From Candidatus Velthaea sp. (GTDB taxonomy: Bacteria > Vulcanimicrobiota > Vulcanimicrobiia > Vulcanimicrobiales > Vulcanimicrobiaceae), in assembly GCA_050012475.1 (NCBI GenBank), contig JBEKHC010000003.1, positions 1 to 64,000 of the forward strand: a stretch of 64,000 nt of DNA. The letters run 5' to 3'. The notes under the pieces are model-generated. The model saw nothing but the letters and a program-made list of their open reading frames with translations. It did no database searches and had not been told where the DNA came from. Of the stretch, positions 1,735 through 62,545 are shown piece after piece. Position 1 is the stretch's first letter, and the number at the start of each line of letters is the position of its first letter. A program made the translations under genes and the position numbers.

Positions 1735-1780
1735 ATCCACCGATTTCACGATACCGACGTTCGCTCCCCTGAGCTAAGCT
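1735..1780 (+). promoter_or_regulatory. Conserved regulon motif copy 1
   Basis: ATCCaccgaTTTCACG, then 24 nt, then TAAGCT; upstream of ORF 1866. Confidence 0.65.
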
Positions 1781-1865
1781 CTCAAATACGCTGGGGTCTG
1801 GGCCCCGCGGCCGACATGCGATTCTCTGCTCATGTTCGTCTTTCTCTCACGTTTAAGGACACGCC

Positions 1866-2054
1866 ATGTTGCAACCCGGAGACCGAGTGTCTATCGACTG
1901 GATCGGCGAGGAAGGTTTCGTCACCGAGGTGCACACGCACGACGTCATCGTGCGTGTGTGTGTGCCGGGCGGACACGACGAGCGCAGCTACGCGCACGAA
2001 AGCCTTCGGCTTGTACCAGCGACGGCTGCACCATCGCATTTGTACGCGCACTGA
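1866..2054 (+). CDS. Small hypothetical protein (62 aa, SH3/KOW-like beta pattern)
   Basis: AAGGA RBS before ATG; LQPGDRV...EEGFVTEV pattern typical of small beta-barrels; preceded by the regulon motif. Confidence 0.6.
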   Translation: MLQPGDRVSIDWIGEEGFVTEVHTHDVIVRVCVPGGHDERSYAHESLRLVPATAAPSHLYAH

Positions 2055-2120
2055 TCTTGCCGAGGCGCAGTTCCACCGAACTCCACGAGATGATTCGGTC
2101 GTTCTGGGGCGCACTGCGAG

Positions 2121-2384
2121 TTAACCGAACTCTCCTTTGATGTATTGTTGCGTTTCTATCTCCTTGGGGTCGCGGAATATCTGGTTGGAATCGCCGAACT
2201 CCAACAAGTAACCCGTCCGGGCTCCATCCGAAGTATCGACGTATAAAAAGCCCGTCTTGTCGGCCACCCGCTGGGGCTGCTGGAGATTGTGAGTCACGAT
2301 GGCGATCGTGAACCGCGTCTTGAGTTGCTTCATGAGTTCCTCGATCTACCGCGTCGCGACCGGATCGAGCGCGGAGCAAGGTTC
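2121..2384 (-). pseudogene. pstB: Phosphate ABC transporter ATPase, 3' remnant
   Basis: [21 protein letters not shown]...IVTHNLQQ...YIKGEFG with an in-frame TAG at 2346-2348; N-terminal two-thirds absent. Confidence 0.9.
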
Positions 2385-2517
2385 CGCTCTCTGGTCCGGC
2401 GGACACGGTACCGAAGTGGTCATCCGCTCGACTCATCGGTCAAGACGCGCCGGCCCGCGGCCCAAAGGGTTCAAGCGATCGAAGAGGTAGCGACATCCCG
2501 TTCACGCTGGAGCGCGG

Positions 2518-3711
2518 CTAGACGCCAAGCCAGGCGCGCAGCGCCTCGTCCGTCGGATCTTGGTCGTAAGGAATCTCGATGAGCTGCACGCCGTTATTGC
2601 GGCAAAGCTTGCGCTTGCACGCGTCGCGCTCCTGGCTCTTGCGGAAAGCCGCTTCGCCCCCGAAGAAATCGATTGCGCGGTAGTGCTGGACCCGCTGGTA
2701 CTCGAACCCGATAGCAAGATCCGGAACGTAGATATCGAGATGCTGACGACCTAGCCACCTGAACTGCGCGCCGTGCTGAACTTCCCGAGGAGACGCGAGG
2801 CGCTTCACGCGATAGAGCAACTCGGTTTCCGATATCCACCCCTCGCCGATCTTCGGCAACCCGAGGTCCGAGCGAACACGGTTCTCCGCGCGACGGACTA
2901 TGGCTTGAAGCAGCGTGTTGAAATCGGGAGTCGCGTCAAGGAGTTCGAGATATCTCAGGGTGTTGGGCCACTTCGATCTCTCGCTGCGAACGCGCGAAGC
3001 AAAGAGATCGCCCGGCAGATATGCGTCGATGCCCGCTATTTCCGCGCGCCCAGCCGAACGCTTCGGCATGGACGGCGACTCCAGCTCGGTTTGCAGCCGC
3101 TGCCTTCGCGCCTTCATGCGAACCCCCATCCAATCCGGGCCGTCGTTGACAATCTCGCGGAAACGTTCTCGACGGTCGTACCACAGCACGTTGACGCCCC
3201 GCGCATCAGCCCAGAAGCCGTTCGGGTCGTAGAACATGATTCGGTCTCGGTGATGATGGTCGTGGATGAGGTCGAGACGCGATGCGTGCGCGAGCTGCTC
3301 GAAATCCTGCTTCTCGCGACCGACGCGCGCGAGGAGGCCGCGGCATTCGCCGCTCTGCGCGATGGCCTCGATGATGAGCGACGCGTGCTCAGTGTAAAAG
3401 CGTGTGCGGGGGAGCATGAACAGCCGGGGCGATTCGTAAAGCTCCCACGGCTCGATATCCGACTGCGTGGCAAAGGCAAGGTTGAGGTGAGCGTTAAATT
3501 GGTGGCTTCCCAGGGACGCCGTGCCTGTCAGTGCGCGCGCGCGCAAGCGCTCGAGGAGCGCTTTGAGCGGCTCTCGACTTACGGCAAAGCCGGTCCGCGG
3601 AGCAGCGGGTTCGAGCGGTTTCATCCGGTAAGCCGCTTGTATAAGGAAGCGTTTAGCGTCGGATGACCGGGGATGCGATTGAGCGAAACGCTCGAGCAGA
3701 CCGCAGACCAC
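2518..3711 (-). CDS. Hypothetical protein with C-terminal PD-(D/E)XK-like (Vsr/DUF559-like) endonuclease domain
   Basis: C-terminus GEGWISETEL...WLGRQHLDIYVPDLAIGFEYQ..QHY..IDFFGG...ERD..KR..C..NG..LIEIPY. Confidence 0.7.
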   Translation of the reverse strand: MVCGLLERFAQSHPRSSDAKRFLIQAAYRMKPLEPAAPRTGFAVSREPLKALLERLRARALTGTASLGSHQFNAHLNLAFATQSDIEPWELYESPRLFMLPRTRFYTEHASLIIEAIAQSGECRGLLARVGREKQDFEQLAHASRLDLIHDHHHRDRIMFYDPNGFWADARGVNVLWYDRRERFREIVNDGPDWMGVRMKARRQRLQTELESPSMPKRSAGRAEIAGIDAYLPGDLFASRVRSERSKWPNTLRYLELLDATPDFNTLLQAIVRRAENRVRSDLGLPKIGEGWISETELLYRVKRLASPREVQHGAQFRWLGRQHLDIYVPDLAIGFEYQRVQHYRAIDFFGGEAAFRKSQERDACKRKLCRNNGVQLIEIPYDQDPTDEALRAWLGV

Positions 3712-23732: not shown

Positions 23733-23778
23733 GATCCCGTATTTCACGATACCTGTCTCATCCCGGATTCGATATTTT
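23733..23778 (+). promoter_or_regulatory. Conserved regulon motif copy 2
   Basis: GATCCcgtaTTTCACG, 24 nt, TATTTT; points toward ORF 24274, mgtA and pyk. Confidence 0.6.
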
Positions 23779-27156: not shown

Positions 27157-27205
27157 TGCAGAGCTCGTCCAAGGGACGAAAACAAGAATATACAGCTAAG
27201 GAGTG

Positions 27206-35087: not shown

Positions 35088-35089
35088 CG

Positions 35090-39975: not shown

Positions 39976-40022
39976 ATCATAGCATTCGACTCGGGGTAAA
40001 CACACCGTGAAAACAATGGATC
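39976..40022 (-). promoter_or_regulatory. Conserved regulon motif copy 3
   Basis: GATCCattgtTTTCACG, 24 nt, TATGAT (TGn extended -10). Confidence 0.7.
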
Positions 40023-42155: not shown

Positions 42156-42244
42156 TCAGCAGCTCGGCGACGCCAAAGGCGACGGCGGCTTGCGGCGAAG
42201 CCGCAAACGCGATGGATTCGTCGAGCGTAGCCGAGGCGAATCCA

Positions 42245-43978: not shown

Positions 43979-44058
43979 GAGGGGATCCTCCGTCGCGACA
44001 GCGCGAACAGGAAGCGGCGACGCGCCTCAGGCCGCAAGTTGGGCGTCGAAAATGACAT

Positions 44059-47001
44059 TCACCGTCCGAGTGTTGGAGCGGCCTGACGATCGGGTCGCGC
44101 CGATGTCGTTTCATCCACGAGATAGACGATCGACTCGAACGGGAACGCGAGGTGATCGCTGAGCACGGTCTCGCAGGTTTTTCCAAATGAATACGCGCCG
44201 TCGAAGGAGCGTCCCGAGAGCTCCGTTTTCTCGTCACGCAACGCCGAGGCAGCCCCTTCCGGGTAGCGGAAGCCGCGGTCGCCGCCGGCGCCGCAACAGC
44301 CGGCGCTCGACGGGATCCAGCTTTCTCTCGCGCAGGCCCTGCCGATCGCGTCGATCTTGTCATCGACACCGAGTTGCCGACACGCGCAGGTGGGATGCAT
44401 GAGCACCGACCCCTTCGGCGTGGTAACGTTCAAGCGGGGAAGCACATCGTCGTGGAGCCACCCGGCCATGCCGCGAATCGTGAGCTTCGCGTATTTCGCC
44501 TGATTCGCGCTGGAAAGAAGCCGCGGGCGAGCGCCCCACATCTGCGTTTCCATCTCGACCAGCAGCGTCCGTGCGCACGAACTGACGTCGCACACGATCG
44601 GCAGTCGTCCGCCGTCGCTCCACGAATACATCGCCTCAATGACCCGATTCGCCATCACTTCCTGTGCCTCGGGAAATCCCTGATGGGCGAAGAGCTGCGA
44701 GCAACACAGACCGATCGAATCTTTGGGCAAATACATCGTGATGCCGGCGCGTTCGGCGATCCGCAGAACGGTCTGCATCACGCTGTCCTTGCCGCGTGTC
44801 GACGAGCCCATGATCCGCGTGATGCACGCGGGGAAGTAGACGATATCGGGATTCGCGGGTTTCGTCGATGGTCGCGCCGGTGCCCGGCCCAGATTCCCCG
44901 ACCACTGCGGGAACCCGGGCAGAACGCCGCCCAGAGCCGCCGTGACCCACGGCATCGTGCCGCTGCCGAAGGTCTTTTGCACGGCCGCGCCGCTGTCGAG
45001 TGTCAATCGGGCCGTTTCTTCGAGCAGGAAAAAGTTTGTCGCGGCGGCGGCCATCAGTTTTCGGGCGGCCTTGGGGATGGCTTCCGCTCGATCGTAGTCG
45101 GTGAGGTACGCCGTGCTGATGCCGACCGGGCAGACCGTCTGGCACATGCCGTCGGCGATACACGTTTCGCGCCCCTCGTGCGCATACTGACGCGAGAGCG
45201 TTTGCGCGCGGTCATGCTCGCCGGCTTCTTCGAGGGAAAGCCGAACGCGGTGCGCTTGGATCCGCCCGCGCGGCGTCAGCGTCGAGTAGCGCGTGGGGCA
45301 CACCCACTCACAGTAGCCGCATTCGATGCAGCGGTCGACGACCGGATCGCCGAGCAGCGGCATGCCCTTGATATGCTCGAGATGCACGTTCGGATCGTCG
45401 TTGATCATCACGCCCGGATTCATGAGGTTTGCGGGATCGATCAGCACCTTGAGCCGCTGCATGACGCCATAGGCTTGCGGCCCCCATTCCGTCTTGATGA
45501 ACGGAGCCATCGCACGACCCGTGCCGTGCTCGGCCTTGAGCGAACCGTCAAAGGTGAGCACGAGCTCGACGACGTCGTTCATGAAGCGGCCGAAATGCGC
45601 GACGCGTGCGCCGTCCCCCATGTCGTCGGTAACCAAGAAGTGGATGTTGCCGACGCTGGCATGGCCGAAGATCGACCCCTCGTAGGCATACTTCTCGAAG
45701 AGTCGTTGCAGACCGAGGATCAGTTTGTCCAGGCTTTCGACCGCGACCGCGACGTCTTCCAAAATAACGGTCGTGCCCGGTTTGCGCGCTCCGCCGACGC
45801 TGGCGAAGATGCCGTCGCGCACCGTCCAAAGCAGCGCGCGTTCCTTCATCGATGTACTGAACGGCAGTTGGGCAAGCAGCCGCAGCAGCGCAATGGTCCG
45901 TGCGGCTTCGGCCTGCGCGGCCGCGAGCGCGGCGACGTCCGCTCCATGGTAGTCGATGAGCAGCGCCGCAGCTCCATCCGGCAACGAACCCACGATCCCG
46001 GGTACGCCGGGGCGGCCGATCACCGAACGCAAAGACGCGATGTCCATCAGCTCGATCGCCGCGGCGCCGCTTTTCACCAGCGCCGGCACAGCGGCCGCCG
46101 CATCGGCCACGTTGTGAAAGAAGAGCAGCGAGCTGGATTGCTGGACGTCGATCGGCACCGTGAAGAGCACGGCCGACGCGATATACGCTAACGTTCCTTC
46201 CGAACCGATCAACAGGTGCGCCAAGATGTCGATCGGTTCGTCGTGGTCGAGAAACGAGTTGATGGCGTAGCCCGAGACATTCTTGATTTCGTATTTGCGC
46301 GCGATACGCGCGCAAAGCGCGCCATCGGCACGCACCTCATCGCGTAGTGCTGCCAGCCCCCGGTAGATATCCGGGTCGCAGGCCGCGAAGCGCGCACGAT
46401 CCTCCGGCTTCGCAGTATCGTAGCGGTTGCCGTTCGGCAGCACGAAATCGATCGAGGCCAGCGTATTATAGGCGTTGAACTTCGTCCCGGCTTGCATCCC
46501 GCTCGAGTTGTTGGCGAGCACGCCGCCCATCATCGCGACCTGGCTCGAAGCCGGATCGGGGCCGATTTTCTTTCCCGCGGGCTTGAGCATCGCATTGAGG
46601 TGGAGCACGGTCAACCCCGGTTCAAACCACACTTTGCTCGCGTCATCGCGCAACTCGCTCGCCCGAAAGGCAAACCGCTGATCCGCAATGATCCCCGTCC
46701 CCACCGTCTGACCCGAGAGCGAACTGCCGCCGGCCCGTAACGTGATCGGCACGTTCTGCGCTCTGCCGATTCGCAGCAAGCTTTGCACGTCTGCCGCCGA
46801 CGCGACGCGCACCACTGCTTGCGGAAGATATTCAAAGTACGATCCATCACGGCCGTACACGGCGCGATAGATCTCATCGAACTTGAGCGCTTCGGCGGGA
46901 AACGCAGCCTCTAATGCCGCCCGTAATTCGACCTTGACCACGGACTCGGACAACGTCTCGCGCAGCGTCGAACCTTCGAAGGCGATTGGCGCAACAGCCA
47001 T
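44059..47001 (-). CDS. FAD- and Fe-S-binding oxidoreductase (probable D-lactate dehydrogenase)
   Basis: RAGGSSLSGQ, GPDPAS, IGSEGTL, FGHASVGNIHF, LKAEHGTGR, CIECGYCEWVCP, CCG domains; adjacent to lactate permease. Alternative start at 47013. Confidence 0.88.
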   Translation of the reverse strand: MAVAPIAFEGSTLRETLSESVVKVELRAALEAAFPAEALKFDEIYRAVYGRDGSYFEYLPQAVVRVASAADVQSLLRIGRAQNVPITLRAGGSSLSGQTVGTGIIADQRFAFRASELRDDASKVWFEPGLTVLHLNAMLKPAGKKIGPDPASSQVAMMGGVLANNSSGMQAGTKFNAYNTLASIDFVLPNGNRYDTAKPEDRARFAACDPDIYRGLAALRDEVRADGALCARIARKYEIKNVSGYAINSFLDHDEPIDILAHLLIGSEGTLAYIASAVLFTVPIDVQQSSSLLFFHNVADAAAAVPALVKSGAAAIELMDIASLRSVIGRPGVPGIVGSLPDGAAALLIDYHGADVAALAAAQAEAARTIALLRLLAQLPFSTSMKERALLWTVRDGIFASVGGARKPGTTVILEDVAVAVESLDKLILGLQRLFEKYAYEGSIFGHASVGNIHFLVTDDMGDGARVAHFGRFMNDVVELVLTFDGSLKAEHGTGRAMAPFIKTEWGPQAYGVMQRLKVLIDPANLMNPGVMINDDPNVHLEHIKGMPLLGDPVVDRCIECGYCEWVCPTRYSTLTPRGRIQAHRVRLSLEEAGEHDRAQTLSRQYAHEGRETCIADGMCQTVCPVGISTAYLTDYDRAEAIPKAARKLMAAAATNFFLLEETARLTLDSGAAVQKTFGSGTMPWVTAALGGVLPGFPQWSGNLGRAPARPSTKPANPDIVYFPACITRIMGSSTRGKDSVMQTVLRIAERAGITMYLPKDSIGLCCSQLFAHQGFPEAQEVMANRVIEAMYSWSDGGRLPIVCDVSSCARTLLVEMETQMWGARPRLLSSANQAKYAKLTIRGMAGWLHDDVLPRLNVTTPKGSVLMHPTCACRQLGVDDKIDAIGRACARESWIPSSAGCCGAGGDRGFRYPEGAASALRDEKTELSGRSFDGAYSFGKTCETVLSDHLAFPFESIVYLVDETTSARPDRQAAPTLGR

Positions 47002-47243
47002 GGTGTTCCTCATTATTGCTGCGAGTGTTCTTCGTCCCAGAAACTAGGGCTATCGAAAAAGAGGGCAGTTATTCGTCCTTCGCGGTCTTCCGCAAGGAAC
47101 GTCTGACGCAGGACACCGCAGTCGCCACGTTTCGAGCGTGCGCACCCGGCCCAGCCTGCACGCGACAAACCCGCGCATCCCTTTGCGAAGCGATCGTGTT
47201 CGCGCGTCCTTCCCAAAAAGCGGCGCGATTGAACTCATCGCCC

Positions 47244-47289
47244 AACATACACGCTTGGGAGCGGACCAGCCATAGCGAAACGGGGGATA
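47244..47289 (-). promoter_or_regulatory. Conserved regulon motif copy 4 (variant)
   Basis: TATCCcccgTTTCGCT, 24 nt, TATGTT; faces the dehydrogenase-lctP-kup genes. Confidence 0.55.
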
Positions 47290-47380: not shown

Positions 47381-47426
47381 TATCCCTCTTTTCACTATGG
47401 CTGCTGCCGACCCAGGCTAGTATGGT
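47381..47426 (+). promoter_or_regulatory. Conserved regulon motif copy 5
   Basis: TATCCctctTTTCACT, 24 nt, TATGGT. Confidence 0.6.
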
Positions 47427-49240: not shown

Positions 49241-49287
49241 ATTCCATGTTTTTCACGGTACCGCAGATGGCAAGCGTGCGCTAGAAT
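49241..49287 (+). promoter_or_regulatory. Conserved regulon motif copy 6
   Basis: ATTCCatgttTTTCACG, 24 nt, TAGAAT. Confidence 0.65.
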
Positions 49288-49436: not shown

Positions 49437-49679
49437 ATGGAAACAAAAAGCGAACTCACGAAAGTCATCGACAAGGTCACCGAGACCGCCGACAACGTCA
49501 AAGGCGCGGCGACCGAATTCGTTCATCGGGCAGCCGCGGAGGCCGAGCAGGAAAAGCGCATTCTGGCCGGAGACACCATGACGACCGATGCAAAGGCAAG
49601 CTCGATGCTCAACGAAGCAAAACAGACGGCGCAAGGCGACGTCGAAGCGATGAAGCGCACCGAGCGCAACAAGGCGTAA
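49437..49679 (+). CDS. Small hydrophilic helical protein (LEA/CsbD-like stress protein)
   Basis: AAGGA RBS; A/E/K/T-rich composition. Confidence 0.7.
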   Translation: METKSELTKVIDKVTETADNVKGAATEFVHRAAAEAEQEKRILAGDTMTTDAKASSMLNEAKQTAQGDVEAMKRTERNKA

Positions 49680-49685
49680 CTTTCC

Positions 49686-49725
49686 AGCAGTCGCAGAGGG
49701 CGCTCGAACGCTCTCTGCAACTGCT
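49686..49725. terminator. Long hairpin between convergent genes
   Basis: AGCAGT.GCAGAGGGCG...CGCTCTCTGC.ACTGCT. Confidence 0.5.
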
Positions 49726-49792
49726 CCGGCTTGGATTGACGACGGTTCACTCAGAAGTAGTTCCGGCGCGGTTCGAGATTTCGGCCGCATCG

Positions 49793-51037
49793 TTAGGCCC
49801 CGGATGACGCGGCCGAAGCTGCGGGCACGCCGTCGCCTTCCTCGTCGGACGACGCGAAGATCGTCGCAAACGTGTGGCGTGCAACCATCAGGTTCTCGTT
49901 CGCGGCGATCACGCGCACGACGACGTGCGCGCTGTCATCCGAGATGATCCCCTCGCCGGCGGCGTTGCGGATCGAATCGAGATCGATCCCGAGATTGCTC
50001 AGGTTCGCGCAGATCTCGCTCCGAATCGCGGCCGAGCCTTCACCGATCCCACCGGTGAAGACAAGGGTGTCGAGCCCGCCCAACACGGCGACGAGTGCGC
50101 CGACATGCTTCTTGGCCTGGTAGACGAAAAGTTCGACGGCTTCCGCTGCGGCGACGTCGGTCGCGCGCCGCGCCAAGAGCGTCCGCATATCCGCGCTAAT
50201 TTGCGAAACGCCGAGCAGACCGCTGTGCTCGGTCAGCACGGTGTCCAGTTCTGCGGGCGTGTAGCGTCCGGCGCGCAAGAGGTACAACAGCGCACCCGGA
50301 TCGAGATCGCCCGGTCGCGTCCCCATCATGAGCCCGCCCAGCGGGCTGAAGCCCATCGTGGTATCCACCGGCTTCCCGTTGCGCATCGCAGCCAGGCTGG
50401 CGCCGCTGCCGAGGTGCGCAACGATCATCAAACCACGCGTGCCTGCATTCCCGAGTTCGCGGACGATCGACTCGTACGACAGACCGTGGAAGCCATACCG
50501 GCGCACGCCTTCCGAGCGCAGCTCGCGCGGCAGCGGCAGACGCTGCGCTACCATCGGCATGCGATGATGGAAGGCCGTGTCGAAGCACACCACCTGCGGC
50601 GTTCCCGGTAGCGCGGTTTCGATCTCGCTGATCGCAGCGAGGGCCGCGGCCAAATGGAGCGGATCGAACGGTACGAGCGAGGCAAGACTCGTCATCAGCT
50701 CGGCGGTGACAGCCGCCGGCTCCGTATGCTGCGGTCCGCCGTACACCACGCGGTGGCCAACCCCGTCGATGGAAATACCAAGCTCGGACAGCAGCCCGAA
50801 CAGCGCAGCAATCGGCGTCGCCGCGCCCAACGGGCGCCGCGACTCGCGTGGTTGAGGACCGCGCCGGTCACGAATGCGTAACTCGGCCCCGGGCCCTCCG
50901 ATGCGCTCGATACCGCCTTCAACCACGAGCTGCTCGCACGACGCTCCCAAGTCATACACTGCGACCTTGAGTGTTGCCGAGCCGCAGTCGACGCCCAAGA
51001 TGCGGCGCCGATCTGTTTGCGCGCTTGTTCCGGTCAT
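49793..51037 (-). CDS. ackA: Acetate/propionate kinase
   Basis: DCGSATLK, VGHRVVYGG, CFDTAFH, RRYGFHGLSY, HLGSGAS, DTTMGFSPL.G..MGTR.GD, VFTGGIGE. Confidence 0.93.
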   Translation of the reverse strand: MTGTSAQTDRRRILGVDCGSATLKVAVYDLGASCEQLVVEGGIERIGGPGAELRIRDRRGPQPRESRRPLGAATPIAALFGLLSELGISIDGVGHRVVYGGPQHTEPAAVTAELMTSLASLVPFDPLHLAAALAAISEIETALPGTPQVVCFDTAFHHRMPMVAQRLPLPRELRSEGVRRYGFHGLSYESIVRELGNAGTRGLMIVAHLGSGASLAAMRNGKPVDTTMGFSPLGGLMMGTRPGDLDPGALLYLLRAGRYTPAELDTVLTEHSGLLGVSQISADMRTLLARRATDVAAAEAVELFVYQAKKHVGALVAVLGGLDTLVFTGGIGEGSAAIRSEICANLSNLGIDLDSIRNAAGEGIISDDSAHVVVRVIAANENLMVARHTFATIFASSDEEGDGVPAASAASSGA

Positions 51038-51041
51038 GCCG

Positions 51042-53381
51042 TCACCCCACGGCGAAGCGGCGGAACATCGCCAGCTTCACGGTATCGAGCAGGAACGCAA
51101 ACGCCGTTGCCGCGACGAACAGCCCGGCGATGATCGCGAGCGGCAGCGCGTGCATGAGGATGCCCCGTGCGGCAAGGATGGCGACGATACCGGCGTCGGC
51201 AACCGAGGATGCCAAAAGCCAGCGACTCGGCAGAGAACTCCAAAGATGATCTCGCTCGCGCACAACGTACAACACCGCTTGACCGCTGAAAACCAGCGTC
51301 ACTACAGCGAATGTCTGCAATGCCGGCGTGCTCAGCGAGAAGGCGACCTTTCCCATCACGAGGCAGGCGATGCAGAAAACGAGGTCGGCCGCGCCCATTG
51401 CGGTCCCGGCAAGCGTGAGATTTCGGATGTGCCAGACGCTCGGCTTCGATGACGGACGCACGTTATCGGTCGACGACGACATGGCGAGAAAATCTCCGAT
51501 AACCATCATCAACACCATGAGCGTCGGCGTGAGGATCGCGTGCCCGGTGAGGATCAGCCCGGCCGCCAAGAACAGCACCTGATTGATCTTGTGCGTGATC
51601 GACCGCAGCGTGTAGGTGAGAATCCGCTGGAACGTCGTTCGCCCCTCGGTAACCGCGGCGACGACGCCGCCCAGACCCGGTTCCGTGAGCACGATACCGG
51701 CAGCCGACTTCGCGACGTCGGTTGCCGTCGATACGGCGATCCCCATCTGGGCTTGGCGCAAGGCGGGAGCGTCGTTTGCGCCGTCGCCGCCGACGCCGAC
51801 GATATGACCATCCTTTTGCAGCGCCTTGACGAGAAAGAACTTGTCCTCCGGCAGCACGCCGGCAAAGATCGCGAACGTTTCGGCTCGCAGATCGTGCGGC
51901 AGCGGCGTCGTTGCCGACATCGCACCGGTGATGCCCACCGCACTCGCTACGAATCGTGCGGTCGCCGGCGCATCGCCCGTGACCATGACGGTCCGAACCC
52001 CGAGTGCGGCTAATTGCGCGACGAGCGCGGCCGCGTCGTCGCGCGGCGGATCGCTCAAGGCGATGAGGCCGGCGAGCGCGAGTTGGCCATGCGGTCCGGC
52101 GGCGACGGCAAGGACGCGACCGCCGCTCGCCTCGAGCTTGCCGACGAGCGCCAGCGCCGCAGCGTCGCTTTTCGCCCGGTCGGCGACGACGGAGAAGGCG
52201 CCCTTGACGACCTGCAGCACGGCGCCGCTCGCTTCGCGCACGATTGCTTCCGAACGTTTGCGTTGCGGATCGAACGGGACGAAGGAGACGAGTGCCGGCT
52301 CGTCGTTCGGGGATGCGCGCAATGCACAACTGCGAACGGCAGCGTCGACGGGATCCGCGCCGCTCACGGAACTTGCCAGAGCTGCCAGCGCGAGGACGTG
52401 CGCTTCGTCGAACGGCGCGAACGCGTGCACGGAGATGACGGCGAGTTCGTTACGCGTCAGCGTTCCGGTTTTGTCCGAGCAGAAGACGTCGATGCCTGCC
52501 GCTTCGTCGACTGCCGACAAACGCGTCGGCAAGACGCCGCGGCTGGCCAGCGATCGGGCGCCGATCGCCGCTGCGAGCGTGAACATCGACGGCAGCGCAA
52601 CCGGGATCGACGCGAGGACCGCGACGAGCACGAGCGGGATGATCTCGGTGCGCGGCATCGGTGACAGCAGCGCGTACGCCGTCAGCATCACGGTCACCGC
52701 ACCGTTGAAGATCACTAGGTTGCGGACCACGCCGAAGATGGTTTTCTGCTGCGTGCTCTCGACGGCGGCCGTCCGAATGAGCTCGGCCGTGCGGCCGAAT
52801 TTGGTGCGTTCGCCGGTCGCCGACACCAGGGCCAGCGCCGCACCGCGGCGCACCAGTGCGCCCGCGTACGCATCGAAGCCCGGTCCGGCCTCGACCGGCA
52901 GCGACTCCCCGGTGAGCATGGACTCATCGATGAGGACTGCTCCCGAGAGCAGCCGGACGTCGGCGGGGACGACGGCGCCCAGGGTGAGATTCACCACGTC
53001 GCCCGCCACCAGATCGGCAGCCGGCAAGGTGATCCACCGTCCGTCACGCTTCACGGGCGCGTTGAGCGCCAGGCGCGACTTGAGCGCATCGAGCGTGGCC
53101 TGCGAGCGCGTCTCTTGAATGACGCTCAGCGCGGCATTGAACACCAGCAGCAGCGCGATGACTGCCGCCTCCGGGTAGTCGTGCAGCCCGAGCGCAAGCA
53201 GAATCGCGGCCTCGAGCATCCAGGGTATCGGCGCCCACAACTTCTCGAGGGCACGCCGAAGCGGCTGCGGCGCTACGTCGACGATTGCGTTCGCACCACC
53301 ATGCGCGAGGCGCGTGCGCGCTTCGCCCGCCGTCAACCCGGCTGCGGGGTCGGAGGCGGATCGCTCGTCAGACGTAATCAC
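51042..53381 (-). CDS. P-type H+-ATPase-like (type IIIA), copy 1
   Basis: WAPIPWMLEAA, TGES, ASIPVALP, CSDKTGTLT, KGA, GDGANDAPAL; TM6 reads IGDF. Confidence 0.88.
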   Translation of the reverse strand: MITSDERSASDPAAGLTAGEARTRLAHGGANAIVDVAPQPLRRALEKLWAPIPWMLEAAILLALGLHDYPEAAVIALLLVFNAALSVIQETRSQATLDALKSRLALNAPVKRDGRWITLPAADLVAGDVVNLTLGAVVPADVRLLSGAVLIDESMLTGESLPVEAGPGFDAYAGALVRRGAALALVSATGERTKFGRTAELIRTAAVESTQQKTIFGVVRNLVIFNGAVTVMLTAYALLSPMPRTEIIPLVLVAVLASIPVALPSMFTLAAAIGARSLASRGVLPTRLSAVDEAAGIDVFCSDKTGTLTRNELAVISVHAFAPFDEAHVLALAALASSVSGADPVDAAVRSCALRASPNDEPALVSFVPFDPQRKRSEAIVREASGAVLQVVKGAFSVVADRAKSDAAALALVGKLEASGGRVLAVAAGPHGQLALAGLIALSDPPRDDAAALVAQLAALGVRTVMVTGDAPATARFVASAVGITGAMSATTPLPHDLRAETFAIFAGVLPEDKFFLVKALQKDGHIVGVGGDGANDAPALRQAQMGIAVSTATDVAKSAAGIVLTEPGLGGVVAAVTEGRTTFQRILTYTLRSITHKINQVLFLAAGLILTGHAILTPTLMVLMMVIGDFLAMSSSTDNVRPSSKPSVWHIRNLTLAGTAMGAADLVFCIACLVMGKVAFSLSTPALQTFAVVTLVFSGQAVLYVVRERDHLWSSLPSRWLLASSVADAGIVAILAARGILMHALPLAIIAGLFVAATAFAFLLDTVKLAMFRRFAVG

Positions 53382-53465
53382 GGCGATGCCGCCTCACCGG
53401 CGGAACCGGCGGCAGTCAACAAGAGCCGCGCGCAGGCGCCGATCGTCGGTTGCATGATTGTTGCG

Positions 53466-53513
53466 ACTTTAGCACCCGGCGAACGTGACCGGCAATCGTG
53501 AAAATGGCGGATC
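53466..53513 (-). promoter_or_regulatory. Conserved regulon motif copy 7
   Basis: GATCCgccatTTTCACG, 25 nt, TAAAGT; faces ATPase-ackA. Confidence 0.6.
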
Positions 53514-53551
53514 GGGGCGTTCGCATCAGTGCGCCGGCAACGGCCGAACGA

Positions 53552-53598
53552 GGTCCATGTATTTCACGATACCCTCTCGACCTGCGCTGCGCTACAAT
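53552..53598 (+). promoter_or_regulatory. Conserved regulon motif copy 8
   Basis: GGTCCatgtaTTTCACG, 24 nt, TACAAT; faces the SPFH-to-phosphoketolase genes. Confidence 0.7.
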
Positions 53599-53701
53599 TG
53601 CCGTGTCGCCGATCGACGGCCCCGTCCTCCGGCTGTTTCTCTCTCGCGCCCGTCGGACAGAAGTAGCCGAATCGTCGAGCGTTTGCGCCGAAGGGTTGTC
53701 C

Positions 53702-54523
53702 ATGTTCACGCTCGCAGGTCTGTTAGGCCCGTTCGCTCTCATCATCCTCGTTTTTATTCTCGTCAATGCGTCGGTGCGCGTGTTGCGCCAGTACGAGCGT
53801 GGCGTCATGTTCACCCTCGGACGCTTCTCCAGCGTCCGCGGGCCAGGTTTGATCTTTCTGGTTCCCTACATCCAGCAGATCGTGCGCGTCGACTTGCGGA
53901 CCGTCGTGATGGAAGTCCCGAGTCAGGACCTCATCTCGCGCGACAATGTCTCGGTCAAGGTCGACGCCGTGCTCTATTTCCACGTCGTCGATCCCGAGAA
54001 AGCCGTCATCGCGGTCGAACAGTATGCCGCAGCGACGAGCATGCTGGCGCAGACGACGCTGCGCTCCGTCCTCGGGCAGCACGAACTCGACGAAATGCTC
54101 TCCAAGCGGGCTACGCTCAATACCGACATCCAGGATATCCTCGATTCGCGCACCGAGGAGTGGGGGATCGAAGTGACCGCCGTCGAGATTCGCGACGTGC
54201 AGCTGACCGACAATATGGTCAAAGCCATTGCAAAGCAAGCCGAAGCCGAGCGCGACCGGCGCGCGAAAATCATCCACGCCGACGCGGAATTCCAAGCCTC
54301 GCAAACGTTGGTGAACGCGGCCAAGATCCTAGCTTCCGTTCCGGCCGCGATGCAGCTTCGCTATCTGCAGACCCTCTCGGAAATCGGCGGTGAGAACAAC
54401 TCGACCGTGATCTTCCCGATGCCGCTCGACATCATCAAGCCATTCTTGGACATCGCGAACAAAGACGCGGCGGCGGCCGCGGCTGCGGCGGCGAACAACA
54501 ACCTGAAGCTGCCGGTGCTATGA
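53702..54523 (+). CDS. SPFH/stomatin-like (slipin) protein
   Basis: YERGV.F.LGR, VDLRT, QDLISRDNV, AQTTLRSVLG, AKQAEAERDRRA, QLRYLQTL. Confidence 0.95.
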   Translation: MFTLAGLLGPFALIILVFILVNASVRVLRQYERGVMFTLGRFSSVRGPGLIFLVPYIQQIVRVDLRTVVMEVPSQDLISRDNVSVKVDAVLYFHVVDPEKAVIAVEQYAAATSMLAQTTLRSVLGQHELDEMLSKRATLNTDIQDILDSRTEEWGIEVTAVEIRDVQLTDNMVKAIAKQAEAERDRRAKIIHADAEFQASQTLVNAAKILASVPAAMQLRYLQTLSEIGGENNSTVIFPMPLDIIKPFLDIANKDAAAAAAAAANNNLKLPVL

Positions 54524-54987
54524 CGCTTGCCGGGCCGGCCCCGGGACGCGATGACTTCTTGACCCGCACGACGCTGCAACTGGACGAAGGCCTCTCGCTG
54601 CCCTCGGTCGCTGGGCTCATCAAAACGCTGCAGCGCGTCCCGGGGGTCTTGCTGGCCGAGATCGCCGCGGGCAGCGCCCGCGCGGTCGTCGCGCACGACG
54701 CCGCCGTGCCTGGCGCGTCGCTGCTGGCGGCCGCCGCACGCGCCGGCGTGCACGCGACGATCGTGGCCGACACGCGCCCGCCGGTTGCACCGGTCGAAAC
54801 GGCTGCGCCGCCCGCACTGTCGCGCGACCGACGCATCTTTGCGCTCGCAGCAGCACTGCTCTTCCTCTTGGCGCTCGGCGAGGCCGTCTTTCCCCGGCTT
54901 ACGAGCAATCACTATTTGCTGCCGGTGCTGCTCTCGTCGCTCTGGGCGTTCGTCATCGCGCGCATGTTGTTCAAGCGGCGGAAGTAG
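54520..54987 (+). CDS. HMA-like domain lacking CxxC plus two C-terminal TM helices
   Basis: I.TLQRVPGV..AEI...RAVV.HD ferredoxin-like pattern; no Cys in the protein; ATGA overlap with the SPFH gene. Confidence 0.6.
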   Translation: MTLAGPAPGRDDFLTRTTLQLDEGLSLPSVAGLIKTLQRVPGVLLAEIAAGSARAVVAHDAAVPGASLLAAAARAGVHATIVADTRPPVAPVETAAPPALSRDRRIFALAAALLFLLALGEAVFPRLTSNHYLLPVLLSSLWAFVIARMLFKRRK

Positions 54988-55048
54988 CATTCGCTCACCG
55001 CCGCGCGTCCCGGCTTCTCAAACACCAGCTCTTCGCAAGGAATTGACC

Positions 55049-56128
55049 ATGCCGACCATCTCACCGGGCATCGAATTTGAAGTGACGCGTCTGGGCGCGA
55101 TCATGCGCCCGCAAGCGGGCGCGCCGCACGAAGCCTGGGGCGTCCTCAATCCGGGCGGCGTTCGTTCCGCGGACGGTACGATGCATCTCTTCCCGCGGCT
55201 GATCGCCGAAGGGAACTATTCGCGGATCGGCCACGCACGCGTTCTTTTCGACGGTGAGAACCCGGTGAACGTGGAACGGCTGGGGCTCGCCCTCGAGCCG
55301 CACGAGTCCTATGAAGTCAGCGCCGGTGGCGGCGGCGTCGAGGATCCGCGCGTCGTGTACGTGCCGCTGCTCGAACGTTATGTGATGACGTATACGGCAT
55401 TCGTCCCGTACGAGCCGCGTGTCGCCATCGCCGTTTCCGAGGATCTCCAGACCTGGCAGCGACTCGGTGTGTTGCGCTTCGCGGTGAAACCCGGTGCAGC
55501 GGATCTCAACAAATGCGGCAATAAGGACGCGGCGCTCTTTCCCGATGTCATCTCGGATCCCAAGGGCGTCCCGTCGCTGGGGATCTTGCACCGGCCGACG
55601 ACGCGAATGCACTTTCGCCGCCATCATAAGGGCACGGCGGTCACCAAGCCTCCGAGCGGCGACGAGACCCAAGAGAACATCTGCATCTCCTATATCCCAG
55701 TCGATGCGGTTCTCGCCGACATCGGAAACCTGACCGCGGTGCGGCGCCACGAACGCGTTCTCGCACCCGAGCAGCCGTGGGAAATGCAGAAAGTCGGAAC
55801 CGGCGCCCCGCCCGTCCGGCTTCCATACGGTTGGGTGCTGCCGTATCATGCGGTCTCGGCTCCCGGCGGGCGCTCGCGCTATTGCATGGGGATCGCAATT
55901 CTCGATCTGCAGCGGCCGGCGCGGGTGCTCTACCGCACGCCGCTGCCGGTCCTCGAGCCGGAAACGGACTACGAGTGCAACGGCCTCGTCGACGATGTCG
56001 TCTTTCCCTCAGCGACCGATCTGCGCGCCGACGGAGCCCTCGACGTGTACTACGGCGCAGCGGATCACGTGATCGCCGCGGCGCGCGTCACCTTGCCACG
56101 CGACTTCCCCGCTTCGGCGTCGAAATGA
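55049..56128 (+). CDS. Glycoside hydrolase family 130-like glycosidase/phosphorylase
   Basis: GVLNPG, GVEDPRV, YTA, NKDAALFP, LHRP, KVGTGAPP, YH, VVFPS, YYGAAD; AAGGA RBS. Confidence 0.85.
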   Translation: MPTISPGIEFEVTRLGAIMRPQAGAPHEAWGVLNPGGVRSADGTMHLFPRLIAEGNYSRIGHARVLFDGENPVNVERLGLALEPHESYEVSAGGGGVEDPRVVYVPLLERYVMTYTAFVPYEPRVAIAVSEDLQTWQRLGVLRFAVKPGAADLNKCGNKDAALFPDVISDPKGVPSLGILHRPTTRMHFRRHHKGTAVTKPPSGDETQENICISYIPVDAVLADIGNLTAVRRHERVLAPEQPWEMQKVGTGAPPVRLPYGWVLPYHAVSAPGGRSRYCMGIAILDLQRPARVLYRTPLPVLEPETDYECNGLVDDVVFPSATDLRADGALDVYYGAADHVIAAARVTLPRDFPASASK

Positions 56129-56141
56129 AAGACGGCGTGCC

Positions 56142-58667
<2,526 letters not shown>

Positions 58668-58717
58668 ACCTTGGCGCGTTCCCCGCACGCACTTACTCCA
58701 GAGAAAGAACGTTTACT

Positions 58718-61306
58718 ATGCGCACAGCCAAACCACCGACGACATCCGAAAACAACGGCAATTCCGCACCGCTCGCGAAGATTGCACCCAACGGCAACCG
58801 GACAGCAACCTTCGACTTCGACGTTGCGCTGTCGACGGCGGTTGCGGCCAACGGCTCGCCCCATGCGCCGCAGCCGGTCCCCGCTGGACCGCTTGCGCCC
58901 GATCTGCTCGATAAGATCCATCGCTACTGGCGTGCCGCGAACTATCTTTGCATCGGCCAGATCTATTTGTTCGAGAACCCGCTGCTGCGCGAGCCGCTCA
59001 AAGCCGAACAGATCAAACCGCGCCTGCTCGGGCACTGGGGCACGTCACCAGGACAAAATCTGATCTACGTTCACCTCAATCGGCTCATCAAAGAGCACGA
59101 CGCGAACGTTATCTACATCTCGGGCCCCGGACACGGCGGCCCCTCGCTCAACGCGAACTCCTATCTCGAGGGCTCCTACACGGAGGTCCATCCCGAGATC
59201 ACGCTCGACGAGGACGGTCTGCGTCTCATGTTCCGCAAGTTCTCGACGCCGGGCGGCGTCCCCAGTCATTGCGGACCGCACGTTCCCAACTCGATGCACG
59301 AAGGCGGCGAACTCGGCTACTCGCTCGTCCACGCCTTCGGCGCGGCGTTCGACAACCCGGATTTGATCGTCGCGTGCGTGATCGGCGACGGCGAATCCGA
59401 AACCTGTCCGCTCGAGGGGAGCTGGAAGTCAAATAGCTTTCTCAACCCCGTGCACGACGGAGCCGTGCTGCCCATCTTGCACTTGAACGGCTATAAGATC
59501 TCCGGACCGACGGTCCAAGCCCGAACCAACGACGACGACTTGCGCGCGCTGTACGTCGGACGCGGCTACAAGCCGTATTTCGTCGAAGGTGACGAGCCGC
59601 TCGTCGTGCACCAGCTCTTCGCGGCCGCACTCGATGCTTGCTATGCCGACATTCGGACGATCCAGCGCACCGCACGCGAGCACGGCTTCGACAAGCAGCC
59701 GGCTTGGCCGATGATCGTGCTGCGCACGCCCAAAGGCTGGACCTGCCCCAAAGAAGTGGACGGCATTCCGATCGAAGGCACATTCCGCGCGCACCAAGTG
59801 CCGCTCGCCGGCGTTCGCGAGAATCCCGACCACCTCAAGATCCTCGAGTCGTGGATGAAGAGTTACAAAGCGCAGGAGCTCTTCGACGAACAGGGCAGAT
59901 TCATCGCGGAATTGGCGGCCTTGGCTCCGGCCGGCAACCGCCGCATGGGCGGCAACCCGCACGTCAACGGCGGCCGGCTGCTCAACGCGCTCGACCTGCC
60001 CGACTTTACCGATTACGCGCTCGACATTCCCGGCCCGGGCCAAGTCATCGCCGAAGCACCGCGCAAACTGGGCGACTTCTTCGCTGACATCTTCCGCCGC
60101 AACAAGACCAACTTTCTCATGTTCTGTCCCGACGAGACGAACTCGAATCGGTTGAACTCGGTGCTCGAGGCAACGAACCGTCGCTTCATGGCCCAAACCG
60201 TTTCGATCGATGACCAGCTCAGCCCCGACGGGCGCGTGCTCGAAGTGTTGAGCGAGCATTGTTGCGAGGGCTGGCTCGAGGGCTACTTGTTGACCGGACG
60301 CCATGGTTTGTGGTCGTCGTATGAAGCGTTCGCGCAGGTCGTCGACTCGATGCTGACCCAGCATGCGAAATGGCTCGAACAGTGCCGCGACTTTCCCTGG
60401 CGCAAATCGCTCGCGTCGCTCAACGTCCTGCTCACCAGCCATGCCTGGCGCAACGATCACAATGGTTTCAGCCATCAGGCTACCGGATTCGTCGACAACG
60501 CCTTAGCCCGCCGCAGCGAAACCATTCGCGTCTACTATCCGCCCGACAGCAATTGCCTGCTGAGCGTCTTCGACCATTGCCTGCGCAGCCGAAACAAAGT
60601 CAACATCGTTACCTGCGGTAAGCAGCCGCAACTGCAGTGGCTGACCATGGACGAAGCGCTCGAACATTGCTCACGCGGCGCATCGACCTGGAAATTTGCG
60701 ACCAACGACGGCGGGGCTGAGCCGGACGTCGTCCTGGCTTGCGCCGGCGACGTACCGACGATCGAGACGTGTGCGACCGCCTGGCTACTGCAGAAATACG
60801 TTCCCGGCATCAAAGTGCGCGTCGTGAACGTGGTGGACCTAAGCGCGCTCATGAGCCCGAACGACCATCCGCACGGCATGGACAACATGTCCTTCAACGA
60901 CCTCTTCACCACGAGCGCGCCGGTCATCTTCGCTTTCCATAACAACCGCTGGCTGATCCATTCGATGGTTCACGGACGCGCGAACGAGGCACGCTTCCAC
61001 GTGCGCGGCTACATGGATCGCGGGACGACGACCACCCCCTTCGATATGGTGGTGCTCAACGAGATGAGCCGCTACCATCTCGCCATCGACGCGCTCAACC
61101 AAATTCCGCGGCTGCGTTCGGAAGCATCGACCGTCATCGAAATGTTCCGCGCCAAGCTCTTCGAGCACACCGCGTATATTCAGGAACACCTCGAAGACAT
61201 GCCCGAGATCCGCAATTGGCACTGGACGGCCGATTTCAGCGAACCGGGCTCGCCGCCGCCGCTCGCCAAGGGACATCCTCGCGCCGCCTTATTCAGTGAT
61301 AGCTGA
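58718..61306 (+). CDS. xfp: Phosphoketolase (XFP family)
   Basis: [79 protein letters not shown]. Confidence 0.95.
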
Positions 61307-61485
61307 AACGATCGTAAGCGGCGCTTCCGGGAGGAGCGCCGTCCAGGCCCTACGTTCGACATGTGCTACGGACATGCTACCTTCGAGCGGACACCCACAA
61401 GGGCACGTAGCCGCAAGCTTCCGAAGGAACGGAGCCGAGCAACGCGCGAACCGCGCTGCCCGCGAGACGCTCGGTCACGACGCTT

Positions 61486-61860
61486 TCAGCGTTCCGCGTT
61501 TACCTGACGAAGGCGGGCGTCAGCGAGCTTTACCGCGGAATCGAGACGCTCGAACTCCTCGCGCGCCCCGGCCGGACTCGTCGGTACGTTTCGATTGTCG
61601 ATCGAACAAACATTCGCCGTAATATCTTCTATGGGCGTTAGGTTTTTCATCGCTTGCCGGCGGCGCCTATTCGCATCCAGCCGGCGCATCTGTTTTTTCG
61701 AGACGAAGCTGAACTTCTTCGGTGCGGCGTAGATCACCGGCTGATCCGTCACATCGACGTGGTTTGGCGTCAGTTTCAGGCTACTTATGTGGCTGACCAT
61801 CGACTCGGCATCGTGGTCGTCATCTAGGCGCGGTGCAGTATGTACGGCGTCCGATGTCAT
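61486..61860 (-). CDS. Hypothetical protein (124 aa)
   Basis: GGAG RBS before the ATG at 61860, 13 nt after the paralog B stop; no recognisable domain. Confidence 0.4.
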   Translation of the reverse strand: MTSDAVHTAPRLDDDHDAESMVSHISSLKLTPNHVDVTDQPVIYAAPKKFSFVSKKQMRRLDANRRRRQAMKNLTPIEDITANVCSIDNRNVPTSPAGAREEFERLDSAVKLADARLRQVNAER

Positions 61861-61873
61861 CAGGTCATCTCCA

Positions 61874-62374
61874 TCAGCAAGAAAAGAGGTGGCGGTCTTT
61901 GCGGCCGGCAGTCGTTTCCGCCGACGCACGCTCGACGTGATCGGCGATCGACCGCAGGAAACCGCAGACGAAACCTCGAGCGACCCGCTTGCCGAGTCCC
62001 GCATCGAACACCGCCCCGGCGGCGCCGAAGGGCACCTGGTAGTGTCCAGACAGAACGAGGCTGAAACGATCGCGGAGCAACGTTCTTTCAACCGCTAACG
62101 CACCGGCGAACTCCGGAAACGCGCCGCCGTCGGCGGACGACAAAGCGATGGAATAGGTCGGGTGCGAATCGGCCGCCGACGAAAGCGAATAAAACGACGC
62201 GACCGCGCGCTGCTCCAGCGCCACTTTCCAGGCCGCGAACATCGTTATCGGCAAACGCAGCGCGATACTCAGCGAACCGTTCACGTCGCGGTGTTCGGCG
62301 ACGAACGCCGCCAGACGTTGCGCGGCTTCGTGCTGCGCGCAATGAACGACGAGCCGCTCGCAGATATCCGGCAT
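61874..62374 (-). CDS. Hypothetical protein, paralog B (SRPBCC-like fold suspected)
   Basis: Alignable over most of its length to 39416..39922. Confidence 0.75.
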   Translation of the reverse strand: MPDICERLVVHCAQHEAAQRLAAFVAEHRDVNGSLSIALRLPITMFAAWKVALEQRAVASFYSLSSAADSHPTYSIALSSADGGAFPEFAGALAVERTLLRDRFSLVLSGHYQVPFGAAGAVFDAGLGKRVARGFVCGFLRSIADHVERASAETTAGRKDRHLFSC

Positions 62375-62498
62375 TGGAAGGCCCTTCGATCGACCGCGTG
62401 ACGGCAGCCGCAAACACGTTCGATGATGCCCGTCGGCGCGGAATGCGGCGTGATCGCCGGCGGACTCGTGCGGCAGGAGCTGATCGAACGACATGGTT

Positions 62499-62545
62499 AG
62501 GATATCATCCAGGCCGCGCCAACCGTATCGTGAAAACAGTGGATC
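62499..62545 (-). promoter_or_regulatory. Conserved regulon motif copy 9
   Basis: GATCCactgtTTTCACG, 24 nt, TATCCT (TGn extended -10). Confidence 0.7.

What the first reader, a model, noticed from the sequence alone, without database searches (positions are those of the whole stretch)
1735..62545. Nine copies of an unassigned activator-like promoter motif define a putative fermentation/ion-homeostasis regulon
Seen: (A)TCC-N4-5-(A/T)TTTCAC(G/T)(A/G)T at 1735(+), 23733(+), 40022(-), 47289(-), 47381(+), 49241(+), 53513(-), 53552(+) and 62545(-); the 47289 copy is a TTTCGCT variant. Every copy is intergenic and points into the downstream gene. In 8 of 9 copies a TANNNT hexamer follows exactly 24 nt after TTCAC(G/T) (25 nt in the ninth). 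Targets include both type-IIIA H+-ATPases, ackA, xfp, the SPFH operon, the dehydrogenase-lctP-kup genes, the ABC exporter, probably mgtA-pyk, and several small unknown proteins. Established: a site at this distance from a sigma70-like -10 lies near -40 to -45, where class II activators bind. It is not the FNR (TTGAT-N4-ATCAA), CRP (TGTGA-N6-TCACA), Rex or DosR palindrome; only a TCAC half-site is shared with CRP. Inference: an uncharacterised activator, or an alternative sigma with unusual spacing, controls a hypoxia/acid-stress regulon. No obvious candidate DNA-binding regulator lies in the window.
Basis: partly seen in the sequence, partly recalled or inferred. Interest (0 to 1): 0.85.

Follow-up and report, generated by a model that had tools for sequence, protein, structure and literature searches.

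The report
LuxR-type stress regulon of soil Eremiobacterota
A DNA box sits at a fixed distance before about 30 promoter-like sites in this soil bacterium and flanks a LuxR-type regulator gene in most related genomes examined, so that protein likely binds it and would switch on proton pumps and ATP-yielding enzymes, probably when the cell is acidified or short of energy.

Summary
The motif is real. All nine copies are at the stated coordinates, and two more lie in the window (1273-, 63859-). It is a fixed 18-bp box, ATC(C/G)-n5-TTTCACGAT, with TANNNT 24 (rarely 25) nt after TTCACG, centred near -43.5. The genome holds 31 such sites, 30 intergenic. RNA contig ends fall 6-20 nt downstream of 7 of 13 predicted starts (0.4 expected; one study).

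In other genomes the box lies upstream of close homologues in 33 of 35 loci and just downstream in 17 of 35; distant homologues give 2 of 14 and 0 of 14. The most conserved target is a divergent, HTH-less, cysteine-rich receiver gene.

Targets point to pH and energy stress. cydA, USPs, ferritins and catalases lack the box, so hypoxia is not established. Binding and signal are inferred, not shown. My searches found no description in print. The scan reached the same LuxR reading earlier on another piece of this genome (e1-9997573). New variant of a known kind; interest 0.5.

The parts
1265..1282 (-).
1735..1752 (+). Box; -10 TAAGCT at 1775-1780
1866..2054 (+). 62-aa ORF, likely target; a 61%-identical paralogue lies behind the C16:33838 box
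23733..23750 (+). Box; -10 TATTTT at 23773-23778; followed by an 80-aa ORF (24274-24516), then mgtA and pyk (link uncertain)
24577..28744 (+). mgtA (TIGR01524, above cut-off) and pyruvate kinase; possible targets
33978..39922 (-). Likely target operon: 168-aa unknown protein (weak SRPBCC-like lead), HlyD-type adaptor, ABC ATPase, two ABC-2 permeases
40004..40021 (-). Box; -10 TATGAT at 39976-39981
40227..47013 (-). Likely target operon: FAD/Fe-S 2-hydroxy-acid dehydrogenase, lactate permease, Kup K+ transporter
47272..47289 (-). Box (TTTCGCT variant); -10 TATGTT at 47244-47249
47381..47398 (+). Box; -10 TATGGT at 47421-47426; points to unknown ORF 47441-47860
49242..49259 (+). Box; -10 TAGAAT at 49282-49287; predicted start ~49294; RNA contigs begin at 49304/49305 in 4 of 4 runs
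49437..49679 (+). 80-aa hydrophilic protein without a family match; likely target
49793..53381 (-). Likely target operon: H+-ATPase-like P-type pump (TIGR01647 best hit, below cut-off) and acetate kinase
53495..53512 (-). Box; -10 TAAAGT at 53466-53471 (25-nt spacing); back to back with the next box
53553..53570 (+). Box; -10 TACAAT at 53593-53598
53696..61306 (+). Likely target operon: SPFH protein, 155-aa unknown, GH130, type IIIA H+-ATPase (above cut-off), phosphoketolase
61874..62413 (-). Unknown protein, 56% identical to the 39416-39922 protein; likely target
62527..62544 (-). Box; -10 TATCCT at 62499-62504; predicted start ~62492; RNA contigs end at 62479-62486 in 3 runs
62586..63359 (-). 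SpoIIE-family (PP2C-like) phosphatase downstream of the receiver gene
63326..63718 (-). 130-aa HTH-less NarL-type receiver; keeps D52, lacks the acidic beta1 residue, carries conserved C74, C91-H92 and C121; most conserved target
63851..63868 (-).
63854..64000 (+). 5' end of the candidate regulator gene (GAF-like + PAS-like + LuxR HTH, ~356 aa), continuing to G000:C3:64924; a further box lies just behind its stop codon, before aspT-aspD

Best explanation
The box is likely the binding site of the LuxR-type protein encoded at the right edge of the window, which would activate about 30 weak promoters for proton export, potassium and magnesium uptake, organic-acid handling and ATP-yielding enzymes, probably under cytoplasmic acidification or energy shortage. 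SHOWN: an 18-bp box at fixed distance from a TANNNT hexamer, poor -35 elements, conservation of the box on both sides of the regulator gene, and the regulator's LuxR HTH. INFERRED, step 1 (about 0.85): the protein binds, probably as a dimer, centred near -43.5 and recruits sigma70-type polymerase, much as NarL does at yeaR. The invariant T at the box's right end falls on the first base of the -35 hexamer. Step 2 (about 0.6): the copy overlapping the regulator's own 5' end limits its expression while activating the divergent receiver gene. Step 3 (about 0.35): the cysteine-rich, HTH-less receiver feeds back on the regulator or senses thiol/metal status. Step 4, the signal: acid, weak-acid or proton-gradient stress about 0.45, low oxygen about 0.25, general or stationary stress about 0.25. 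Output would be ATP from Xfp-Pta-AckA, Pyk and Ppk2 feeding H+-ATPases, with Kup, MgtA and the AspT/AspD cycle helping to hold internal pH.
For: Geometry: in a genome-wide scan with a matrix built from other genomes' sites, TANNNT lies at 24 nt in 28 and at 25 nt in 3 of 658 hits, and at no other distance in more than 5; 30 of those 31 are intergenic. -35 match to TTGACA is <=2/6 in 23 of 27 sites. T at +8 is invariant in 122 of 122 pooled sites (the scan favours it). Footprint with a matrix trained on this genome only: divergent box upstream of the luxR homologue in 33 of 35 loci at >=60% identity (30 with -10 at 24/25), 14 of 21 at 43-60%, and 2 of 14 below 43% (none with -10); random windows give 5.4% and 1.6%. 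A second box within 200 nt behind the stop codon: 17 of 35, 7 of 21 and 0 of 14; opposite strand 0, 2 and 0. The recognition helix is T(S/T)ST(V/I)QDH-like in box-bearing homologues and AESTAHDH in most box-less ones. Co-occurrence in 172 family genomes: >=4 pattern matches in 11 of 62 with a close homologue and 0 of 89 without; in those without, pattern equals control (0.81 vs 0.85) (kin are not independent). In other genomes 95 of 95 box+-10 sites lie outside called genes. RNA contig ends lie within 20 nt downstream of 7 of 13 predicted starts, 0.42 expected, 0 on the wrong side. Fold: GAF/autoinducer-binding-like 2-135, PAS-like 154-245, HTH 247-318. NarL activates yeaR from -43.5 (PMC10853779, passages). 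Targets.
Against: No binding experiment exists. The dyad is weak: symmetry 0.335 at centre -0.5 and 0.29-0.31 at +2.5 to +4, and a direct repeat at 8-9 nt scores as well (0.32-0.33), so a symmetric homodimer is not established. 17 of 62 genomes with a close homologue had no match to the rigid pattern. G031 (unpublished, 89% complete, 290 contigs) has several boxes but no homologue found. In many genomes the neighbourhood targets are not pH or energy genes (desaturase, UDP-glucose dehydrogenase, WXXGXW and Cu-amine-oxidase-N proteins). Small hydrophilic, BON, PRC-barrel, PP2C and STAS targets look like general stress. The sensor domains have no conserved Cys and no invariant His, so the signal is unknown. 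RNA evidence is contigs from one study, unstranded, with DNA not excluded; 6 of 13 starts had no matching end, and one (C16:27222) was 76 nt off.
Confidence: 0.65

Rival explanations
1. Same LuxR-type binder, but the regulon is a low-oxygen survival programme like the Burkholderia lxa locus or the DosR/FixK regulons.
For: The lxa locus, induced by low oxygen, holds acetate kinase, phosphate acetyl/butyryl transferase, phospholipid-binding proteins, an ABC exporter and a cation ATPase (PMC3721108, passages and Table 4). The same gene types carry the box here. ADH, ALDH and one USP are targets in relatives. The model resembles DosS GAF at fold level.
Against: cydA and 9 USP genes of this genome lack the box (best scores <=4.3 bits). 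No conserved heme-His or Fe-S Cys in the sensor domains. The lxa motif TGA-N6-TCA is not matched (<=4/6).
Confidence: 0.22
2. Same binder, but a general or stationary-phase stress regulon wired to partner-switching modules.
For: Targets include BON, PRC-barrel, SPFH, glycosyltransferase, small hydrophilic proteins, a PP2C phosphatase, STAS and dodecin. SPFH genes recur as targets in several genomes.
Against: Two ferritin-family and two catalase genes lack the box. Many targets are specific proton, ion and ATP-generating genes.
Confidence: 0.2
3. The binder is another protein (the OmpR-type pair at C32, a Crp-family paralogue, or an alternative sigma), and the LuxR gene is only a target.
For: The C32 OmpR-type operon has a box with -10. 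The genome has 14 Crp-HTH matches above cut-off. The box is asymmetric. G031 has boxes without a detected LuxR homologue.
Against: The OmpR-type regulator is in 54 of 61 relatives, including 17 of 19 in family f3 where the strict box occurs in 0 of 19. The box flanks luxR on both sides and is lost where its recognition helix changes. The window's ECF sigmas do not travel with these loci. Crp paralogues were not tested one by one.
Confidence: 0.12
4. Chance, or a dispersed repeat with no regulatory role.
For: Loose core matches without a -10 are common inside genes.
Against: Only the box and the -10 are conserved, while the 22 nt between them are free. The spacing is fixed, the positions are intergenic, the arrangement is conserved across genomes, and RNA ends match.
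Confidence: 0.01

Closest known systems
E. coli NarL at the yeaR promoter (PMC10853779, passages read)
   Same: LuxR/NarL-type HTH (best solved-structure match 1je8, E 9.5e-10); site centred at -43.5 next to a weak -35.
   Different: NarL has a phosphorylated receiver fused to the HTH and binds a 7-2-7 palindrome. Here the HTH carries GAF-like and PAS-like domains, the box is asymmetric (<=8/12 to the NarL consensus), and the receiver is a separate gene.
One-component LuxR-family sensors: TraR/RhlR/QscR and VqmA (fold matches)
   Same: Ligand-binding-type domain plus LuxR HTH. A divergent regulator/target layout with the box between them is typical of luxR/luxI (recalled).
   Different: Three domains instead of two, 11-20% identity, no autoinducer synthase seen beside it, and a different box.
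Burkholderia cenocepacia lxa locus (PMC3721108, passages and Table 4)
   Same: Clustered island with many intergenic copies of one motif; shares ackA, pta/ptb, BON-type, ABC exporter and cation ATPase gene types.
   Different: lxa has an Anr/Fnr-like TGA-N6-TCA motif and six USPs. Here the motif differs, the regulator is LuxR-type, and USPs are not targets in this genome.
DosR/DevR and Streptomyces OsdR (PMC5069765, passages read)
   Same: NarL-family HTH controlling a clustered stress/dormancy regulon.
   Different: Two-component system with a kinase, a GGGAC/AGGGCC-type palindrome and a USP-rich regulon; none of these is met here.

Membership tests
LuxR/NarL (GerE) HTH superfamily | C-terminal four-helix LuxR HTH | tested here: met
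   PF00196 E 1.7e-12; VIA-align Z 10.9, rmsd 2.2 over 63 residues to GerE
NarL/FixJ/DosR two-component response regulators | N-terminal receiver domain fused to the HTH | tested here: not met
   No receiver hit in Pfam or NCBIfam; model shows GAF-like and PAS-like domains
NarL/FixJ/DosR two-component response regulators | Family consensus palindrome | tested here: not met
   <=8/12 NarL and <=12/20 DosR among 27 sites (consensus recalled)
Quorum-sensing LuxR receptors | Pfam autoinducer-binding domain | tested here: not met
   No such Pfam hit; only fold-level likeness, Z 6.8 to the VqsR ligand domain
Quorum-sensing LuxR receptors | Binds acyl-homoserine lactone | not testable with these tools
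   Needs ligand-binding assays
CRP/FNR regulons (incl. lxa) | TGTGA-N6-TCACA, TTGAT-N4-ATCAA or TGA-N6-TCA site | tested here: not met
   <=6/10, <=7/10 and <=4/6 at the box; <=7/10 anywhere within -150..+100 of the 27 cores
Rex regulon | TTGTGAA-N4-TTCACAA operator | tested here: not met
   <=8/14; only the right half resembles it (consensus recalled)
Class II-like activated promoters | Site abutting a weak -35 at fixed distance from the -10 | tested here: met
   24/25-nt spacing; -35 <=2/6 in 23 of 27
Class II-like activated promoters | Mapped start and activator-dependent transcription | tested here: inconclusive
   RNA contig ends within 20 nt at 7 of 13 sites, one study, unstranded contigs
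Canonical phosphorylatable single-domain receiver | Phospho-Asp, Thr/Ser, Lys and the acidic beta1 residue | tested here: inconclusive
   D52 45/46, T/S80 45/46, K102 36/46; acidic beta1 position is G/A/S in the box-bearing group and E in 5/5 distant homologues

The most novel reading that the evidence does not exclude
A split sensing system: in the box-bearing lineage a NarL-type receiver lost its HTH and its acidic beta1 residue and gained clustered cysteines (C74, C91-H92, C98, C121, which by topology face away from the phospho-site). It would act as a phosphorylation-independent thiol or metal sensor that controls a GAF-PAS-LuxR activator in trans, running a 'ferment to pump protons' survival programme in acid-soil bacteria.
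Probability: 0.2. Interest if true: 0.75.

Novelty: new variant of a known kind. Interest (0 to 1): 0.5.

Why it matters
It supplies a regulator, its site, its promoter geometry and a target list for a barely cultured soil lineage, for which my searches found no described regulon of this kind. It ties two proton-pump-type P-ATPases to ATP-yielding and proton-consuming enzymes under one switch. That gives a testable model of how these bacteria hold internal pH when energy is short, and a marker set for soil metatranscriptomes. The cysteine-rich stand-alone receiver may be a new kind of sensor. The activation mechanism itself looks ordinary.

Tried and rejected
Structured RNA: no Rfam match in the window. 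Variable-spacer reading of the motif: rejected. OmpR-type pair at C32 as binder: near-universal in the class. ECF sigmas and HxlR in the window as binders: weak hits in 1 and 3 loci, and none for HxlR. CRP, FNR, Rex, NarL, DosR and lxa boxes: not matched. Direct O2 sensing by the regulator: no conserved Cys or invariant His in the sensor domains. Complex prediction of regulator plus receiver: no answer (score 0.00, controls not run), no evidence either way. Acidobacterial xfp loci: among the 80 loci, box+-10 at 24 nt occurred only in L003, L022, L047 and L052, with one weak 25-nt hit in L066. Plasmid search: no full-length homologue. The loose genome pattern is noisy (control about 0.85 per genome; uninformative in AT-rich families). 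Regions without RNA contig cover were not used as evidence. Literature searches that found no description: one listing, not read; 15 of 28 listings seen, none relevant by title. The library lacks most subscription papers, and RegPrecise/CollecTF could not be queried. No supplements were read.
Full report
1. Observation. All nine copies are in the sequence as described. The pattern occurs 9 times in the window against 0.195 on average in 200 Markov simulations. Anchored on TTTCAC, the upstream C is invariant in 17 of 17 seed sites with 24-nt spacing, so the box has fixed length. Pooling 122 sites gives A T C (C/G) n n G n W T T T C A C G A T, then 22 free bases with a weak GC preference just before TANNNT. 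If the hexamer is -12 to -7, the box spans -52 to -35 and the outer ATC..GAT dyad centres on -43.5. The -35 hexamer matches TTGACA at two positions or fewer in 23 of 27 sites. Two further copies lie in the window, at 1273(-) and 63859(-).

2. Genome-wide. The window is G000:C3:1-64000 of a 5.36-Mb, 204-contig genome. A matrix from the 9 window copies found 27 sites at >=14 bits with the -10: C3 12, C16 9, C78 2, C160 2, C32 1, C1 1. A matrix from other genomes' sites (themselves picked with the own-genome matrix) found 31, 30 of them intergenic by my gene caller, which covers 80% of the genome. Likely targets outside the window: aspT-aspD, MaoC-Pta, BON-HlyD-ABC, transhydrogenase, a LarA-like isomerase, serine dehydratase, alanine dehydrogenase, Ppk2, a second SPFH gene, a glycosyltransferase and an OmpR-type pair. 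The organism is probably Eremiobacterota/Vulcanimicrobiota. The box occurs in xfp loci titled Vulcanimicrobiaceae or Vulcanimicrobiota and not in the Acidobacteriota ones, and Atlas clusters of two regulon proteins are mostly Vulcanimicrobiota.

3. The likely binder. A LuxR-HTH gene lies at C3:63995-64924 by canonical start. Conservation extends upstream to about 63854, inside the window. The model (pLDDT 70) has GAF/autoinducer-binding-like, PAS-like and HTH domains. A second copy on C19 is 70% identical with the same recognition helix. Homologues at E<=1e-30 are in 83 of 172 family genomes, 3 of 3 in the sister family, and none of the 75 more distant genomes searched. I fetched 60 loci and reused 12 earlier ones; the 2 own-genome copies and 1 duplicate were dropped, leaving 70 gene copies. 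With the own-genome matrix, a divergent box lies upstream in 33 of 35 copies at >=60% identity, 14 of 21 at 43-60% and 2 of 14 below 43% (null 5.4%). With the -10 the counts are 30, 5 and 0 (null 1.6%). A same-strand box with -10 lies just behind the stop codon in 17 of 35, 7 of 21 and 0 of 14. The upstream box reads ATC GTG AAA in the regulator's frame in 28 of 33 close copies (frames approximate), so it covers the probable start codon. In 172 family genomes, four or more matches to a rigid pattern occur in 11 of 62 with a close homologue and 0 of 89 without; 17 of the 62 had none. Kin are not independent, so the P values overstate. G031 (unpublished draft) is an exception, with boxes but no homologue found.

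4. The partner gene. In 28 of 35 close copies the divergent gene is a 130-aa receiver without HTH; one more has it on the same strand. It folds confidently as a receiver (pLDDT 93). In 46 close homologues C74 (42), C91 (45), H92 (45) and C121 (45) are conserved and the acidic beta1 residue is lost. The 5 distant homologues have none of these four residues and keep the Glu. From the secondary structure, these cysteines sit at strand starts and helix ends, on the face opposite the phospho-site (inference from receiver topology; no coordinates were available). A sensor or feedback role is an untested inference.

5. RNA. Four metatranscriptome runs of one study hold the region as contigs. In window 44100-64000, contig ends fell 6-10 nt downstream of 3 of 7 predicted starts; adapters sit directly on 49304 in two runs. 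I chose the 20-nt tolerance after that lay. In C16, 4 of 6 starts then met it, one was 76 nt off and one had no piece nearby. The total is 7 of 13 against 0.42 expected, with 0 on the wrong side. Only the 32 longest pieces per lay were listed (of 374 and 110), and I dropped one with 33 mismatches. Contigs are unstranded and may contain DNA, so this is a supporting hint and not start mapping.

6. Signal. The gene set overlaps the low-oxygen lxa locus (PMC3721108; passages and Table 4 seen). However, cydA, 9 USP, 2 ferritin-family and 2 catalase genes have no box within 600 nt, and the sensor domains lack conserved Cys or invariant His. Proton pumps, Kup, MgtA, AspT/AspD, amino-acid deamination and lactate/acetate handling point more to pH and energy homeostasis (established roles of these families, recalled). 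In many relatives the nearby targets are different, so the large island here may be a lineage-specific expansion. My estimate for the signal: acid/energy 0.45, hypoxia 0.25, general stress 0.25.

7. Comparison and novelty. It likely works like NarL at yeaR, which binds at -43.5 beside a weak -35 (PMC10853779; passages seen; the paper was a lead from e1-9997573). It is not a NarL/DosR-type response regulator, a quorum-sensing LuxR, or a CRP/FNR/Rex regulon by the tests above. PMC5069765 was seen as passages. Searches found no description; subscription papers and motif databases were not searchable, and no supplements were read. I had recorded the candidate before seeing it, though its 'acid or low-energy' wording may have coloured my ranking of signals. 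It is not independent support. Claims resting on unpublished genomes: the G031 exception, 4 of the 95 sites (L092), and small parts of the tallies.

8. Verdict. Observation confirmed and extended; regulator identified by inference at about 0.85; signal open. New variant of a known kind; interest 0.5.

Noticed in passing
window 63851-63997 (+): In this copy the codon inside the box is GTT, where most close homologues and the C19 copy have GTG. No ATG/GTG/TTG lies in frame upstream of the conserved SDPAY motif, so the gene uses a non-canonical start or is made short.
   Followed up: partly
window 49304-50589: One RNA contig in three runs begins at the box promoter and runs about 800 nt antisense into ackA, ending at 50585-50589 (adapters in two runs); a fourth run extends to 50939. 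Either read-through antisense RNA or merged convergent transcripts.
   Followed up: no
L083:18645-19721 (G000:C16:38645-39721): RNA contigs cover the stretch behind the C16:39778(-) box, where my caller found no gene; possibly an unannotated small gene or RNA.
   Followed up: no
L081:7460-7678 (G000:C3:69460-69678): An RNA polymerase omega-subunit gene carries a box with -10 at C3:69377.
   Followed up: no
window 39416-39922, 61874-62413: Two paralogues of an unnamed ~160-aa family, both box-linked, with three more copies on C109, C65 and C37; weak SRPBCC-like lead only.
   Followed up: partly
window 53495-53570 and 47272-47398: Back-to-back box pairs drive divergent operons; similar pairs occur in L174, L103 and L092.
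   Followed up: partly
window 13589-20743: An MreB paralogue, an ECF sigma with DUF6596 beside a YCII gene, and a second ECF sigma lie in the lower-GC left part of the window (59% vs 64% genome).
   Followed up: no
L022:2206-3120: A record titled Alphaproteobacteria carries a 78%-identical regulator, the receiver gene and four boxes with -10; the title may be wrong.
   Followed up: no
L081:14963-20000 and L082:1-5937: A chemotaxis-like cluster (MCPs, CheA, CheW, CheB, receivers) follows the island on C3.
   Followed up: no
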